Positions 28,601 to 31,600 of a DNA stretch of 34,625 nucleotides are shown one piece after another. Origin of the DNA: Thermotogota bacterium (lineage in GTDB: Bacteria > Thermotogota > Thermotogae > Petrotogales > Petrotogaceae); NCBI GenBank assembly GCA_051748045.1, contig JBNJGY010000022.1:1-34625 (forward strand). Reading direction: 5' to 3'. Made by a program: the position numbers. Numbering within the stretch: the stretch's first letter is position 1; each line of letters opens with the position of its first letter.

Positions 28601-31600
28601 AAAATAGATTTTATAAATTCTTTTGTAAAATCTTTATCTGGATATTTTAATTCAGCTGAAAATCCAACAGAACTATTCAAATACGCATATAACAATCTAA
28701 ATCCAGAAGAAAATTTTGCTGATTTAAACAAATTGTCTAGAGATAACTATTCTGTTCTTCAAGATGAATTTGGAGACGAGGGTTTCAATGTAGAAGATTA
28801 TGATTTGTTCCATTCAAGATATCATACGTCTATGATAGACTTTAAAGATGTAGAAAATTTAGAAGATATATATCTTGTAGACAGAAATGGGTATGTAGTT
28901 TATTCAGTAAATAAAGCTGAAGATTACGCTATTAATTTGAATGAATCAAATAACAAATTGTCTGAAATGTACAACCTTTTACAAGAACAAGATTCTGAAA
29001 ATCTACAACCTCATTTAATCGATTTTGATTACTATTCAGAAAAAGGTAAAAATTTAGCATTTTATGGAATGGTTTTATATAATTATGCAGTTGACGGTTA
29101 TTTGATAATTTCTAAAGATATAAGTTCATTACAATCTTTAGTAAGTCTTGGAGATAATGTAGAAGATAAATTATTTTTGACAAAAACAGATGGTACTTTG
29201 CTAAATAATGTAGGTAATAGAAATGCTTTTGAATCAACTAAAGATATTTCATTCGTTGAAGGTATGTCTGGTTCTTTAGACTATGAATCTGACGAAGAAA
29301 TGGTTCTTGGGGCTTATCAGAAGATATCTTTAGAAAATGGATATGACAAAATCGTAATAATGGAAAAATCACAAGAAGAAGCTTATTCCGCAATTACAAA
29401 TCTGAACAGGTTGAACATCATTATTATAGCTGTTGTAATAGTATCCGTATTAATATTGGTTACTTTATTTGCAAAATATTTATTAAAGCCTATTAAAAAT
29501 ATTCAGACTAATGTAGAGTATATTTCCAACGATGATTTATCTCATGAATTAAAACAGGAAAGAAAAGATGAATTTGGACTTATTGGTAATCTGTTTGAGA
29601 AAATAAGGCAAACTATAAGAGAGATAATTGAAAAAATAAAAAATGAATCTTCAAGTATTAATAAAGGTGCAGACAGAATAGAAGAAAGTGCTGTTCAAAA
29701 TGTTGAAGAAATAGAAGGCATAAGAAGTTCAATAGAATCAATCCAAAGAAATACTGAGTCCGTTGCAGCATCCGTAGAAGAAACTACTGCTTCAATAGAA
29801 GATGTGTCAGCAGGAGCTAAGAGTATTTCTCAATCTGCAAATGAATTATCAGAAAAAACTTCTAGTATAGTTGAAAAAATAGATGGCTCAAAGAAAGAAA
29901 TTAACTCAATGATGGAATCAGTGGATAAAATAGAAACACTTATGAATACAAATAATAGAAGTATACAACAATTATCTGGACAAACTGATTCTATAAGAGA
30001 TATAACAGAATCTATACATGATATAGCAGAACAAACTAATTTACTTGCTTTAAATGCTGCCATTGAAGCAGCAAGAGCAGGAGAAGCTGGAAAAGGTTTC
30101 GCAGTAGTTGCTGATGAAATAAGAAAACTCGCAGAAGAAAGTTCTGTAGCAGCTGGTAAAATTGAAAATAATATTGATGTATTGGTAAATGATTCTTCAA
30201 AAGTTGCTGATGAAAGTAATAAGGTTACAAATAATGTGAAAGAGATGACAGATAGTATAAAAAATGTTGCAAGAAGCTTGGAAGATGTTATATCGTCAGT
30301 AGAAGAAATTTCTACAATGATTGAAAACACTACAGCAAGCTCACAAGAACAAGGAGCGTCAACAGAACAAATTAATGATTCAATCAATATGATCAATAAA
30401 TCTGTTCAAGCAATAGTTAGCGAAGTAAACGATATATCAGATAAAGTAGAAAATCAATACGGTTCAATGAAAGAATTACAAAACCTTTCAGCAGATCTTA
30501 ATCAATCAATAGATGTACTAGAAAATTATTCTAAAAAGTTCAAACTTTAAGGGGATAGTTAACAAAGATAAATTATATAGTTACTATTTTCAATAAAAAG
30601 GTAACGTAACATAGTTGAAGGTTAACATAATTTATTGTATTATTTAAACAGAGATAGATCCCCCTATCCCCCCTGAGATAAACCCAGAACATTATTTGCC
30701 GGATCCCGCGATTAGGATCCGGTTTTTTTTATGGAGGTGTAGCGTTGAATATACCAAATTTTTTATTTAATAGCGGAGTCTTGCACAGAGTCAAAATGCC
30801 TGGAAGATACTTAGGTGATGAATATAATCAAATTAATAAAAAATCAAAACACACTATTTCTTTGTGTTTCCCTGATTTATATGAAATTGGCATGTCTCAT
30901 ACAGGTTTTCAAATTTTATACAATCATTTTAATAACTCTAGAGATAATGTTTCATGTGAAAGAGTTTTTTTACCTTGGAAAGATATGATAGAAGAAATGG
31001 AAAAATCTAATATAGATCTTTTCACTTTAGAAAATTTTAAATCTATTAGACAAACAGATATTTTAGCCTTTACTCTTCAGTACGAATTGAGTTACACAAA
31101 TATGCTAAAAGTTATAGAATTATCTAAGATACCTCTTTATTCAAAAGAAAGACAAGAAACTGATCCTATTATTATGGCTGGTGGGCCTTGTACAACTAAT
31201 CCTGAACCAATTGCAGATTTTATAGATGTTTTTTTCATTGGTGATGGAGAAGCAGTAATAGATGATATTTCAAGAATAGTAGAAATGGAAATAACTCGAG
31301 AAGAAAAGATAAAAGAATTTTCTAAAATAGATGGATTTTATATCCCAACTTATTATAAAACAATACAGAGTGAGAGAGGTTTAGCTATTCCAAAACCTAA
31401 AAATCATCAAATAAAAGAAAGAGTGAAAGTAAATAAAGTTGTTGATTTAAACAAATATGATTTTCCAACTGAACAATTAGTACCAAATATTCAAATAGTA
31501 CATCACAGAGCCAACATAGAAGTAATGAGAGGTTGTAATAGAGGGTGTAGATTTTGTCATGCTGGTATGTTTTATAGGCCTGTTAGAGAAAGAGACTCTG

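What a model noticed while it worked through the whole genome (the two positions that open the first line are those of the whole stretch)
30615..30730. Phylum-wide C-rich small RNA gene
C22:30651-30730 (+) is an ~80-nt RNA gene with a sigma-70-like promoter (30615-30643), an unstructured C-rich 5' part with the core CCCCUAUCCCCC(C)UGAGAUA and an intrinsic terminator. It matches no Rfam family but is conserved in all 11 families of the phylum Thermotogota. Paralogue-like units lie at C8:29374-29456 and C66:3672-3748.
Evidence so far: No Rfam hit E<=1 nor in relatives. BLAST 21/26 family genomes. Covariance model R3: 119/151 genomes, 42/48 genera, 11/11 families. Exact pattern in 185,579 species genomes: 34 stretches, 26 titled Thermotogota, which R3 scores 23-94 bits against 14-26 or none for 7 of 8 others. 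Terminator: 8/9 pairs compensatory, 0/500 shuffles. Promoter/terminator scan. Neighbour genes conserved in only 4/30 loci. C-run length varies, breaking any frame.
(Added by a program. Inside this text positions count along the whole contig: contig position 1 is position 1 of the stretch shown here. "Call 12" and the like, gene names such as g00115 and contig names such as C1 are that model's own, and its searches are not shown. The text may have been shortened before it was handed on; [...] marks where a part breaks off. The agent that wrote the report below was given it as the finding of a first reader that could run no searches.)

Follow-up and report, generated by a model that had tools for sequence, protein, structure and literature searches.

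The report
Phylum-wide C-rich small RNA gene
This is a small non-coding RNA gene with an exposed cytosine-rich stretch, kept almost unchanged across the whole phylum Thermotogota, that most likely silences messenger RNAs by covering their guanine-rich ribosome-binding sites.

Summary
Window 30651-30730 (+) carries CCCCCUAUCCCCCCUGAGAUA, mostly unpaired, then a 9-bp intrinsic terminator and U8. No Rfam family fits.

A covariance model built from one family alone found it in 125 of 151 Thermotogota genomes. A second model found 145 of 151 (47 of 48 genera, 11 of 11 families). 137 of these scored better than E 1e-5, while the best of 150 control genomes from another phylum reached only 5.4e-5, on plain terminators. 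All nine terminator pairs covary. Flanking genes differ between families and are often divergent or convergent, so it is an independent gene.

New here: the Thermotoga maritima copy maps onto a published 184-nt putative ncRNA with a mapped start site, induced 47-fold in carbon-limited late growth. In six to seven families, but not the window's, an ECF/sigma-E-like promoter motif precedes the RNA.

The likeliest mechanism is pairing of the C-runs with G-run Shine-Dalgarno sites, as in RoxS/RsaE or 6C. This is inferred, not shown; the best target lead is the DUF4912-GH57 glucan operon. The RNA's 5' end in this window is unproven: metatranscriptome contigs start inside the upstream gene.

Verdict: a new member of a known kind.

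The parts
30651..30730 (+). Small RNA as modelled: C-rich 5' part plus terminator. The 5' end is inferred, not mapped.
   Evidence: Covariance models R1 and R2 match 30651-30730 at 88.7 and 80.2 bits. Fold.
30660..30680 (+). Conserved core CCCCCUAUCCCCCC-UGAGAUA: two C-runs separated by UAU.
   Evidence: In 38 homologues from 11 families, CC-UAU-CCCC is invariant in all 38; the next two C of the first run are C in all 35 that have a base there. Mean predicted unpaired probability of the core is 0.68 at 37 C and 0.84 at 65 C.
30683..30685 (+). Remnant of the third C-run (CCC here; CCCCCC in most other families).
   Evidence: Alignments.
30653..30668 (+). Predicted weak hairpin GAUAG/CUAUC with AUCCCC in the loop. 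The alternative UAUC/GAUA hairpin would put the second C-run in a loop.
   Evidence: UAUC/GAUA pairs are possible in 27-38 of 38 sequences but never covary.
30698..30730 (+). Intrinsic terminator (9-bp stem, loop of 8, U8).
   Evidence: 9 of 9 pairs compensatory across 38 homologues, 0 of 500 shuffles.
30615..30643 (+). Sigma-70-like promoter TTGAAG-N17-TATTAT, with a conserved GTTAACA (30621-30627) inside the spacer.
   Evidence: 9 of 12, not above the chance rate. TTGAAG/TTGAAA at -35 in 7 and TTGTTA in 1 of the 9 family-f1 loci shown (none in L090 and L028), each 17 nt before a TATAAT-like box; TTAACA in the spacer in 8 of 9.
30600..30611 (+). GGTAAC/GTAACA boxes about 16 nt upstream of the TTAACA box; a possible regulator site.
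   Evidence: Recurs in family-f1 loci L078, L080, L077, L075, L068 and L074. Function not tested.
30491..30687 (+). Stretch covered by contigs of RNA libraries.
   Evidence: Runs X1 30491-30687, X2 30531-30687, X3 30519-30679, at depth 5.9-11.2. Contigs cannot show ends or strand.
28388..30550 (+). Upstream gene: methyl-accepting chemotaxis protein. No terminator lies between it and the RNA.
   Evidence: MCPsignal, HAMP.
30745..32553 (+). Downstream gene: radical SAM protein. Its RBS GGAGGTG (30733-30739) starts 3 nt after the U-run.

Best explanation
The element is a gene for a trans-acting regulatory small RNA of a family confined to, and nearly universal in, Thermotogota.

Shown:
- An almost invariant single-stranded core (A)CCCCC(C)UAUCCCCC, followed in most families by UUGAGAUAnACCCCCC.
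- A Rho-independent terminator whose stem changes by compensatory substitutions.
- Flanking genes that differ between families.
- Expression of the T. maritima copy as a discrete RNA with a mapped start, strongly induced in carbon-limited late exponential phase.

Inferred:
- The exposed C-runs pair with G-runs in and next to Shine-Dalgarno sequences. GGGGG(G) precedes about one start codon in ten in this genome.
- This blocks ribosome binding (and probably changes mRNA stability), as RoxS/RsaE do in Bacillota and 6C does in Actinobacteria.
- The regulon probably concerns carbon and storage metabolism. The best single candidate is the DUF4912-GH57 alpha-glucan operon.
- Transcription control has been rewired between families. 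In the window's family there is a sigma-70-type promoter directly upstream with conserved TTAACA/GGTAAC boxes. In six to seven other families there is an ECF (sigma-E-like) promoter.
For: It is a gene:
- R1, built from one family, finds it in 125 of 151 genomes in 11 of 11 families.
- R2 finds it in 145 of 151. 137 reach E<=1e-5, against a best of 5.4e-5 among 150 control genomes.
- Terminator: 9 of 9 pairs compensatory.

It is independent of its neighbours:
- The upstream gene is on the other strand in 20 of 36 loci, the downstream gene is convergent in 20 of 36, and both hold in 11.
- Pfam families of the neighbours differ between families.

It is expressed:
- Table S5 of PMC3636130 lists RTS_M_934685_934868: 184 nt, TSS identified, FPKM 243 in log phase, 689 under heat shock, 11438 in carbon-limited late exponential phase, 434 under H2 inhibition.
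- This maps onto the hit in G138.
- RNA-library contigs cover the window's core.

The C-runs are accessible.

Support for pairing with ribosome-binding sites:
- 63 of 137 G6+ runs of the genome lie 2-15 nt before the start of an ORF of 50 aa or more.
- 252 of 2363 putative starts have a G5+ Shine-Dalgarno site.
- The five best duplex energies (-38.4 to -32.4) beat those of 6 run-preserving shuffles (best -31.0). Only the top two beat the reversed RNA (-35.1).
- One genus has a paralogue with CCCCUAUCCUCC, the exact anti-SD pentamer.
- A C-rich paralogue lies directly upstream of the DUF4912-GH57 operon in three genera. In genus g3 the operon's RBS, GGGGGGAUAGGG, is an 11-12-nt perfect complement.
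- 13 of 26 DUF4912 orthologues from 4 of 7 families sampled have a G5-G7 Shine-Dalgarno site.
- 13 of 18 members of a MerR-like paralogue family have G5+ sites.

ECF control:
- GAAC-N16-20-GTC(T/A)NA lies upstream of the RNA in 15 of 38 loci. Only 22 matches occur in all 225,626 nt of those loci.
- 2 of 3 loci of family f8 carry it with a relaxed -10.
- The same motif stands about 48 nt before the ECF sigma gene in G138, G064 and G050, which is 3 of 7 such genes examined.
- The mapped T. maritima start lies 6 nt after GTCTCA.
Against: No target is demonstrated.
- No complement longer than 12 nt exists in the genome.
- GGGGGATAGGGG with up to 1 mismatch is no commoner than its backwards control in 41 genomes.
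- The 13-nt match at the best single candidate, C42:6351, is not kept in the same-genus orthologue.
- G-run Shine-Dalgarno sites are retained between orthologues of G000 and G126 (10 pairs against 4.0 expected, OR 3.6, p 0.003). Canonical GGAGG is retained at least as well (OR 4.8), so this is not specific.
- Start codons in all these counts come from my own crude ORF rule.
- Counts over orthologues and paralogues are not independent.

Other points against:
- Conservation of some 25-30 nt, including UAU and UUGAGAUA, is more than G-run pairing needs.
- The small UAUC/GAUA hairpin that could explain it never covaries.
- In the window the RNA's own start is unproven, because contigs begin inside the upstream gene.
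- The window's family has no ECF-like motif.
- The sigma-E consensus I compare the motif with is recalled from memory.
Confidence: 0.55

Rival explanations
1. A protein-binding or titrating RNA. The C5-UAU-C5(-N10-C6) array would be a high-affinity site for a protein that binds C-rich single strands: Rho (whose primary sites prefer C-rich, G-poor unstructured RNA), a KH-domain protein of the KhpA/KhpB type, Hfq or a cold-shock protein. The RNA would sequester or deliver that protein in late growth or stress.
For: - The whole 25-30-nt core, not only the C-runs, is near-invariant over 11 families with very different G+C content. That fits one conserved partner better than many variable mRNAs.
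- No conserved long RNA complement was found.
- Target statistics are weak.
- The C-run motif is repeated three times at set spacing, and it is shared by at least two further paralogue subfamilies.
Against: - No protein partner was tested or can be tested with these tools; the binding preferences named are recalled knowledge.
- The CCUCC variant, the perfect RBS complement next to the g3 paralogue and the G-run sites of DUF4912 orthologues point to RNA pairing.
- All characterised C-rich sRNAs that surfaced in my literature search act by pairing (listing and abstracts only).
Confidence: 0.2
2. A cis-acting part of neighbouring transcripts rather than a separate gene. In this window that would be the 3' UTR and terminator of the chemoreceptor mRNA, and/or a leader or attenuator of the radical SAM gene, whose RBS starts 3 nt after the U-run.
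For: - RNA-library contigs run from inside the chemoreceptor gene into the element, and no terminator lies between them.
- The downstream gene has no room for a promoter of its own between the terminator and its RBS.
- The order chemoreceptor, RNA, radical SAM recurs in genera g1 and g5; in g8 the chemoreceptor stands upstream, but no downstream ORF could be called.
Against: - Across the phylum the neighbours differ. In 11 of 36 loci both neighbours face the wrong way for any cis role.
- In genus g5 a separate terminator follows the chemoreceptor gene before the RNA's promoter.
- The C-runs cannot pair with the GGAGGUG RBS of the downstream gene.
- A local dual use (an sRNA that shares its terminator with the upstream mRNA, plus read-through into the next gene) is not excluded. 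It would add to the trans role rather than replace it.
Confidence: 0.1
3. A DNA-level signal (a protein-binding site, or an i-motif/G-quadruplex-prone sequence) or a tiny coding gene, with the terminator merely adjacent.
For: - Three C-runs on one strand give three G-runs on the other.
- The only papers that hold the 11-mer treat i-motif DNA or are unrelated (listing only).
Against: - The core always has the same orientation and distance relative to a covarying terminator and a promoter.
- It is transcribed in T. maritima.
- C-run lengths vary by single bases between genera. The only ORF across it is a 39-codon antisense frame.
Confidence: 0.04

Closest known systems
RoxS / RsaE (Bacillota)
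   Same: A trans-acting sRNA of about 100 nt with several unpaired C-rich stretches. These pair with G-rich Shine-Dalgarno regions of metabolic mRNAs. It ends in an intrinsic terminator, has related sRNAs in the same genome, and is conserved unusually widely for an sRNA (abstracts; mechanism partly recalled).
   Different: No detectable sequence or structure relationship: no Rfam hit at E<=10 in the window, and none at gathering score in 16 homologous or paralogous loci. The phylum differs. The core motif C5-UAU-C5 differs. The control elements differ (sigma-70-type or ECF-like promoter, rather than the regulators described for RoxS/RsaE, which I recall only).
6C RNA (Actinobacteria)
   Same: A phylum-scale conserved sRNA whose function rests on C-rich accessible segments that bind several mRNAs (title and abstract of PMC6486639).
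   Different: 6C displays its C-runs in the loops of two stable hairpins. Here the main form is essentially single-stranded, with at most a 4-5-bp hairpin that does not covary. Only a paralogue subfamily has a closed-loop design. No Rfam match.
Sigma-E-dependent sRNAs (MicA, RybB, MicL, MicV in Proteobacteria; FoxI/FoxJ in Fusobacterium)
   Same: In families f3, f6, f7, f9 and f10 (and in part f2 and f8) the RNA is preceded by a GAAC-N17-GTCTAA-type motif. The same motif precedes the ECF sigma gene itself. This matches sRNA arms of envelope or stationary-phase stress regulons (abstracts).
   Different: The seeds of those sRNAs are not C-rich, and their targets are mainly outer-membrane protein mRNAs. 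The window's own family lacks the motif. Dependence on the ECF sigma factor is not shown.
anti-hemB (Burkholderia RNA 7, RF02837)
   Same: The best Rfam resemblance: a C-rich stretch (UCCCCCCUG aligned) followed by a terminator.
   Different: 17.8 bits against a gathering score of 49.5, E 0.068. The model's 5' hairpin is not formed here.
Unnamed putative ncRNA RTS_M_934685_934868 of T. maritima (Latif et al. 2013, Table S5)
   Same: It is the orthologue. It maps on the covariance-model hit in G138 and ends at the same terminator.
   Different: It is 184 nt, starting about 115 nt upstream of the core. The paper gave it no sequence motif, family, conservation or function, and stated that no secondary structure could be defined (passages read).

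Membership tests
RoxS/RsaE sRNA family | Match to the Rfam covariance model at or near gathering score | tested here: not met
   No such family is among the 7 matches with E<=10. 0 matches at gathering score in 16 related loci.
RoxS/RsaE sRNA family | Several unpaired C-rich regions plus an intrinsic terminator | tested here: met
RoxS/RsaE sRNA family | Demonstrated pairing with G-rich Shine-Dalgarno regions that represses translation | not testable with these tools
   Only predictions and context are available.
6C RNA | Match to the Rfam covariance model | tested here: not met
6C RNA | Two stable hairpins that carry the C-runs in their loops | tested here: not met
   The main form has only a 4-5-bp UAUC/GAUA option with no covariation. 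One paralogue subfamily has a closing stem and a CUAUCC/GGAUAG hairpin.
anti-hemB (RF02837) | Score at or above the gathering score of 49.5 bits | tested here: not met
   17.8 bits.
Trans-encoded bacterial sRNA gene (generic kind) | Own promoter and own terminator, independent of neighbouring genes | tested here: met
   The terminator covaries. Neighbours are divergent, convergent and variable. Promoter motifs are conserved within families. For this window alone the promoter is inferred.
Trans-encoded bacterial sRNA gene (generic kind) | Detected as a discrete transcript | tested here: inconclusive
   Yes for the T. maritima orthologue, from published tables. For the window there are only contigs of RNA libraries, which start upstream of the predicted promoter.
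Sigma-E/ECF-dependent sRNAs | ECF-type promoter (GAAC, about 17 nt, GTCTAA-like) at the transcription start | tested here: not met
   Absent in all 9 family-f1 loci, including the window. Present in 15 of 38 loci of other families, and at the mapped T. maritima start.
Cis-regulatory leader or riboswitch | Constant association with one downstream gene family | tested here: not met
   Downstream genes differ between families and are convergent in 20 of 36 loci.

The most novel reading that the evidence does not exclude
An ancient regulatory RNA that works as a soluble rival of the ribosome's anti-Shine-Dalgarno tail across a whole deep-branching phylum. It would be switched on by an ECF (sigma-E-like) sigma factor or by nutrient exhaustion. 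It would then shut down the roughly 10% of genes that use GGGGG(G) instead of GGAGG as their ribosome-binding site, among them the DUF4912-GH57 glucan operon. On this reading a G-run Shine-Dalgarno site is a regulatory tag read by this RNA. A bolder variant is that the same C-array also titrates Rho.
Probability: 0.25. Interest if true: 0.85.

Novelty: new member of a known kind. Interest (0 to 1): 0.62.

Why it matters
A 2022 review table counts one annotated sRNA family for the whole phylum Thermotogae (passage read in PMC9029176). The T. maritima multi-omics study stressed how few putative ncRNAs it found: 12 in its abstract, 13 in its text and Table S5.

This would be the first regulatory base-pairing sRNA family defined for the phylum. 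It is conserved at a depth that few sRNAs reach.

It comes with testable handles:
- an invariant seed;
- a published expression pattern (carbon-limited late growth);
- a likely ECF sigma input in several families;
- a concrete target candidate, the G-run ribosome-binding site of the DUF4912-GH57 operon.

If confirmed, it would show that the C-rich anti-Shine-Dalgarno strategy arose, or was kept, in a hyperthermophile-rich lineage where RNA pairing has to work at 37-90 C. It would also give Rfam and genome annotation a new family.

Tried and rejected

I corrected it by first obtaining handle G151.

3. A long antisense partner was sought and not found:
- ungapped scan of the genome with G-U pairs allowed: nothing above 21.5 of 31;
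- exact and 1-mismatch complements in 41 genomes: only the RNA genes themselves and paralogues, at control frequency.

4. Single-genome target prediction gives only a slight edge over the reversed and shuffled controls. I do not treat its ranking as evidence for individual targets.

5. Candidate C42:6351 (MerR-like): its 13-nt match is not conserved in the G001 orthologue.

6. G-run Shine-Dalgarno retention between orthologues is significant but no stronger than for GGAGG, so I reject it as specific evidence.

7. Association of a G5+ site with a second GGGG after the start codon: 6 genes, OR 3.1, p 0.026. This is weak.

8. An 11-nt complement inside the DUF5693 gene next to the RNA in L106 is not shared by other family-f6 loci, so I take it as chance.

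9. A genome-wide scan for the ECF-like motif in G000 and in 1.2 Mb of G126 gave 13 matches and no clear regulon. The ECF sigma genes examined in G126 and G000 (one each), a second ECF-like gene of G138 and one of the two examined in G050 lack the motif.

10. Other Table S5 RNAs of T. maritima are not paralogues: the remaining R2 hits in G138 are below 30 bits and lie elsewhere.

11. No RNA-library contig covers 30688-30950 in runs X1-X4. A part without cover proves nothing.

12. Literature:
- no paper holds the 11-mer in a bacterial context;
- searches for Thermotoga with sRNA terms gave only Latif et al. 2013 and general works;
- the 26-genome ncRNA survey that included Thermosipho africanus does not mention such a motif in the passages and the one supplement I could search. 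Its PDF supplements could not be read.
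Full report
WHAT IS THERE

The 194-nt spacer lies between a methyl-accepting chemotaxis gene (28388-30550, +) and a radical SAM gene (30745-32553, +). From 5' to 3' it holds:
- GGTAAC/GTAACA boxes (30600-30611);
- a sigma-70-like TTGAAG-N17-TATTAT (30615-30643) with GTTAACA inside the spacer;
- the stretch GAGAUAGAUCCCCCUAUCCCCCCUGAGAUAAACCCAGAAC;
- a 9-bp G+C-rich hairpin (30698-30723) and eight U.

The ribosome-binding site of the radical SAM gene starts 3 nt after the U-run.

As RNA, 30651-30730 folds at -21.5 kcal/mol (z = -3.6). The terminator is the only strong helix. A weak GAUAG/CUAUC hairpin leaves both C-runs in a loop or single-stranded. The promoter scan is not informative by itself: 7 sites were found against 7.4 expected.

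IS IT MORE THAN CHANCE, AND HOW FAR DOES IT REACH?

BLAST with 88 nt found full-length relatives in two families of the order.

I built covariance model R1 from 12 sequences of the window's family only, so that hits elsewhere are not circular. It matched:
- 125 of 151 genomes of the phylum;
- 42 of 48 genera;
- all 11 families.

The 40 best loci share (A)CCCCCCUAUCCCCCUUGAGAUAnACCCCCCAC, while their terminator stems have quite different sequences. In 38 homologues CC-UAU-CCCC is invariant in all 38. All 9 terminator pairs show compensatory changes (95.8% of cells paired, 0 of 500 shuffles, slid controls at 60% or less). The caveat is that this alignment was fitted to the model.

Model R2, built from those 38 sequences, matched:
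- 145 of 151 genomes;
- 47 of 48 genera;
- 11 of 11 families.

As a negative control I ran both models on 150 genomes of the phylum to which a 'Bacillota' MAG belongs.
- R1 hit 11 of 150 (best 31.4 bits) and R2 hit 23 of 150 (best 31.1 bits, E 5.4e-5).
- The seven R1 control hits I read are plain terminators without a C core; I did not read the R2 control hits.
- By contrast, 137 of 151 Thermotogota genomes have E<=1e-5.

Eight genomes have only weak hits: G002, the three of genus g16, G082, G058, G120 and G146. Six have none: G053, G060, G134, G136, G145 and G147. Their completeness ranges from 68 to 99%.

An exact 20-21-nt pattern occurs in 25 stretches of the species-genome collection. 24 are titled as Thermotogota taxa. 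The 25th, in a 'Bacillota' MAG, is 99.4% identical over 2457 nt to a family-f1 locus and is therefore a misbinned contig. That scan clearly misses genomes that hold the pattern, so it shows specificity, not prevalence.

Rfam has nothing. The best match is anti-hemB at 17.8 bits against a cut-off of 49.5, and there were 0 matches at gathering score in 16 related loci.

IS IT AN INDEPENDENT GENE?

In 38 loci from 11 families the nearest upstream ORF is on the other strand in 20 of 36. The nearest downstream ORF is convergent in 20 of 36. Both hold in 11.

Neighbour families are constant within a family but differ between families:

| Family | Neighbours |
|---|---|
| window's genus and two others | chemoreceptor and radical SAM |
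| f10 | PHO4 transporter and SDH-type protease |
| f9 | AIM24 and MnmE |
| f8 | a MiaB-like enzyme |
| f6 | DUF5693 and an H-NOX chemoreceptor |
| f4, f5 | a TPR protein and ScpB |

This excludes a general cis role.

Locally a double life is possible. No terminator separates the chemoreceptor gene from the RNA, and the radical SAM gene has no room for a promoter of its own.

EXPRESSION

Three contigs from RNA libraries (X1-X3, two studies, labelled salt lake metagenome) cover 30491, 30519 or 30531 to 30679-30687 at depth 6-11. So the core is present in RNA libraries. However, the contigs begin inside the chemoreceptor gene, upstream of the predicted promoter, and stop before the terminator stem. 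Contigs show neither ends nor strand.

Stronger evidence comes from T. maritima.
- The R1/R2 hit in G138 lies at 934662-934736 (-).
- Table S5 of Latif et al. 2013 lists RTS_M_934685_934868 (-): 184 nt, TSS identified experimentally. FPKM is 243 in log phase, 689 under heat shock, 11438 in carbon-limited late exponential phase and 434 under H2 inhibition (supplement read).
- The two flanking genes in the paper's Table S1 (933748-934602, DUF114; 934943-935872, phosphate transporter) equal the ORFs of G138 plus 16 nt, with the same lengths and fitting Pfam families.
- After that shift the published RNA spans G138 934669-934852. It covers 68 of the 75 nt of the hit. Its 3' end is the base after the terminator stem. 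Its 5' end lies about 115 nt upstream of the C core.

The authors gave it no family or function, and wrote that no structure could be defined (passages).

PROMOTERS

In the window's family, 7 of the 9 loci shown carry TTGAAG or TTGAAA, and one carries TTGTTA, 17 nt before a TATAAT-like box; L090 and L028 have no such -35. Eight of the nine hold TTAACA in the spacer, and several have GGTAAC about 16 nt further upstream. Three of these loci have a divergent upstream gene, so a promoter must be there.

Elsewhere I found GAAC-N16-20-GTC(T/A)NA upstream of the RNA in 15 of 38 loci:

| Family | Loci with motif | Position |
|---|---|---|
| f6 | 4 of 4 | directly upstream |
| f7 | 3 of 3 | directly upstream |
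| f3 | 1 of 1 | directly upstream |
| f9 | 4 of 4 | 150-165 nt upstream |
| f10 | 2 of 3 | 150-165 nt upstream |
| f2 | 1 of 4 | 173 nt upstream |

Only 22 matches occur in all 225,626 nt of the loci on both strands. Two of three f8 loci carry it with GTCTAT as the -10.

In T. maritima the mapped start is the G six bases after GTCTCA. The same motif stands about 48 nt before the start codon of an ECF-type sigma gene in G138, G064 and G050, which is 3 of 7 such genes examined. That pattern is what ECF autoregulation looks like.

The likeness to the E. coli sigma-E consensus is recalled, not tested. No such motif is found in the window's family. The RNA has thus kept its core while its promoter was exchanged.

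MECHANISM

Shown: the C-runs are predicted to be accessible. The mean unpaired probability of the core in 38 homologues is 0.68 at 37 C and 0.84 at 65 C, against 0.57 and 0.69 in shuffles.

Inferred: they pair with G-runs at ribosome-binding sites.

Supporting observations:
- In this 28% G+C genome, 63 of 137 G6+ runs lie 2-15 nt before the start codon of an ORF of 50 aa or more. 252 of 2363 putative starts have a G5+ run where 728 have GGAGG.
- The best predicted duplexes clamp a G6 site and a second G-run just after AUG. They belong to a chemoreceptor, two MerR-like paralogues and an ABC-2 permease. Their energies exceed those of 6 run-preserving shuffles, but exceed the reversed RNA only narrowly.
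- 13 of 18 members of the MerR-like family in 7 genomes have G5+ sites.
- A paralogue in one genus reads CCCCUAUCCUCC, the anti-SD pentamer itself.
- A paralogue of the type found at C8:29378-29458 lies immediately upstream of the DUF4912-GH57 operon in three genera. In G000 the DUF4912 gene is gone and GH57 starts at C8:29683. In genus g3 the operon's RBS is GGGGGGAUAGGG, an 11-12-nt perfect complement of that RNA. In G009 it is AGGGGGGG.
- DUF4912 occurs in 143 of 151 genomes. 13 of 26 orthologues examined, from f1, f9, f10 and f11, have G5-G7 sites. None do in f2 (0 of 7), f4 (0 of 1) or f7 (0 of 1).

Against:
- There is no long complement anywhere.
- The extended match at C42 is not conserved.
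- Orthologue retention of G-run sites (10 against 4.0 expected among 444 pairs, p 0.003) is no stronger than that of GGAGG.
- All start codons are from my crude rule, and related genes are not independent counts.
- The breadth of the invariant core (UAU, UUGAGAUA) is not explained by G-run pairing. A UAUC/GAUA hairpin could explain it but never covaries.
- A conserved protein partner is therefore a serious rival.

FAMILY STRUCTURE

Many genomes have 2-7 model hits. I saw at least three subfamilies that share CCCCUAUCC:
- the main form;
- the C8 type, CCCCCUAU-hairpin-AUAGAUCCCCCACCC;
- a form in f2, f8 and f11, GAcaGCGACCCCCCUAUCCCCCCUUGGAUrGA. It has a closing stem that changes by compensation and a CUAUCC/GGAUAG hairpin with loop CCCCUU.

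COMPARISON AND VERDICT

It works most like RoxS/RsaE and 6C, but it is a member of neither. In several families its control resembles the sigma-E-dependent sRNAs. Its T. maritima orthologue was listed in 2013 as one of 13 unnamed putative ncRNAs. The family, its motif, its distribution and its likely mode of action are not in print in the libraries I searched.

It is a new member of a known kind. I put the probability that it is a real, conserved small RNA gene at about 0.9, and the probability that it acts by anti-Shine-Dalgarno pairing at about 0.55.

Noticed in passing
G000 C8:29378-29458 (+), C44:11087-11154 (-), C66:3672-3742 (-): Three further C-rich RNA-like units with a promoter-like box and a terminator lie in the same genome (34.8, 33.6 and 31.3 bits with R2, near the control maximum). 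The C8 unit has two C5 runs flanking a CUAUUC/GAAUAG hairpin. It sits upstream of a GH57 gene, at the spot where relatives have DUF4912-GH57.
   Followed up: partly
L173, L174, L176-L179, L183, L189, L190 (families f2, f8, f11): A second conserved paralogue subfamily, GAcaGCGACCCCCCUAUCCCCCCUUGGAUrGA. It has a closing stem (GAGUGC/GCACUC, AAGUG/CACUU, CAGC/GCUG) and an inner CUAUCC/GGAUAG hairpin with loop CCCCUU.
   Followed up: partly
L171, L172 (genus g9): A paralogue whose core reads CCCCUAUCCUCC, so it contains the canonical anti-Shine-Dalgarno pentamer CCUCC.
   Followed up: no
G000 C13:9085-9150 (+): An odd G-rich cluster: a CCCCCCUAAAAUAGGGGGG hairpin followed by two more G6 runs (GGGGGGAAUUUGGGGGGAUGGG). 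It could be a sponge or partner for C-rich RNAs, or just a terminator region.
   Followed up: no
G000 C42:6351, C1:93661, C38:16202, C38:18696, C5:25852: Five paralogues of a 415-aa protein with a MerR-like N-terminus (my reading of its N-terminal sequence; no Pfam scan was run on it). All five in G000, and 13 of 18 family members in 7 genomes, have G5-G6 Shine-Dalgarno runs.
   Followed up: partly
window 30621-30627 and 30600-30611; same places in L068, L074, L075, L077, L080: GTTAACA inside the promoter spacer, 10 nt before the -10 box, and GGTAAC about 16 nt further upstream are conserved across genera. TTAAC/GTAAC boxes also stand near the core in f8, f9 and f10. No regulator was identified.
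   Followed up: partly
L143 (G138) 1528-2457 and Table S1 of PMC3636130: In T. maritima the RNA lies between a divergent low-affinity phosphate transporter gene and an operon that, three genes on, holds a PhoU-like regulator. A chemoreceptor gene follows the transporter. Chemoreceptor genes are also neighbours in f1 and f6.
   Followed up: no
L151 (G151:C22): A 6.3-kb contig of a MAG titled 'Bacillota bacterium' is 99.4% identical to a Petrotogaceae-type locus, so it is a binning error in a public MAG.
   Followed up: yes
L079 (G006), about 150-190 nt upstream of the RNA: A separate intrinsic terminator follows the chemoreceptor gene before the RNA's promoter in this genus, unlike in the window.
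   Followed up: no
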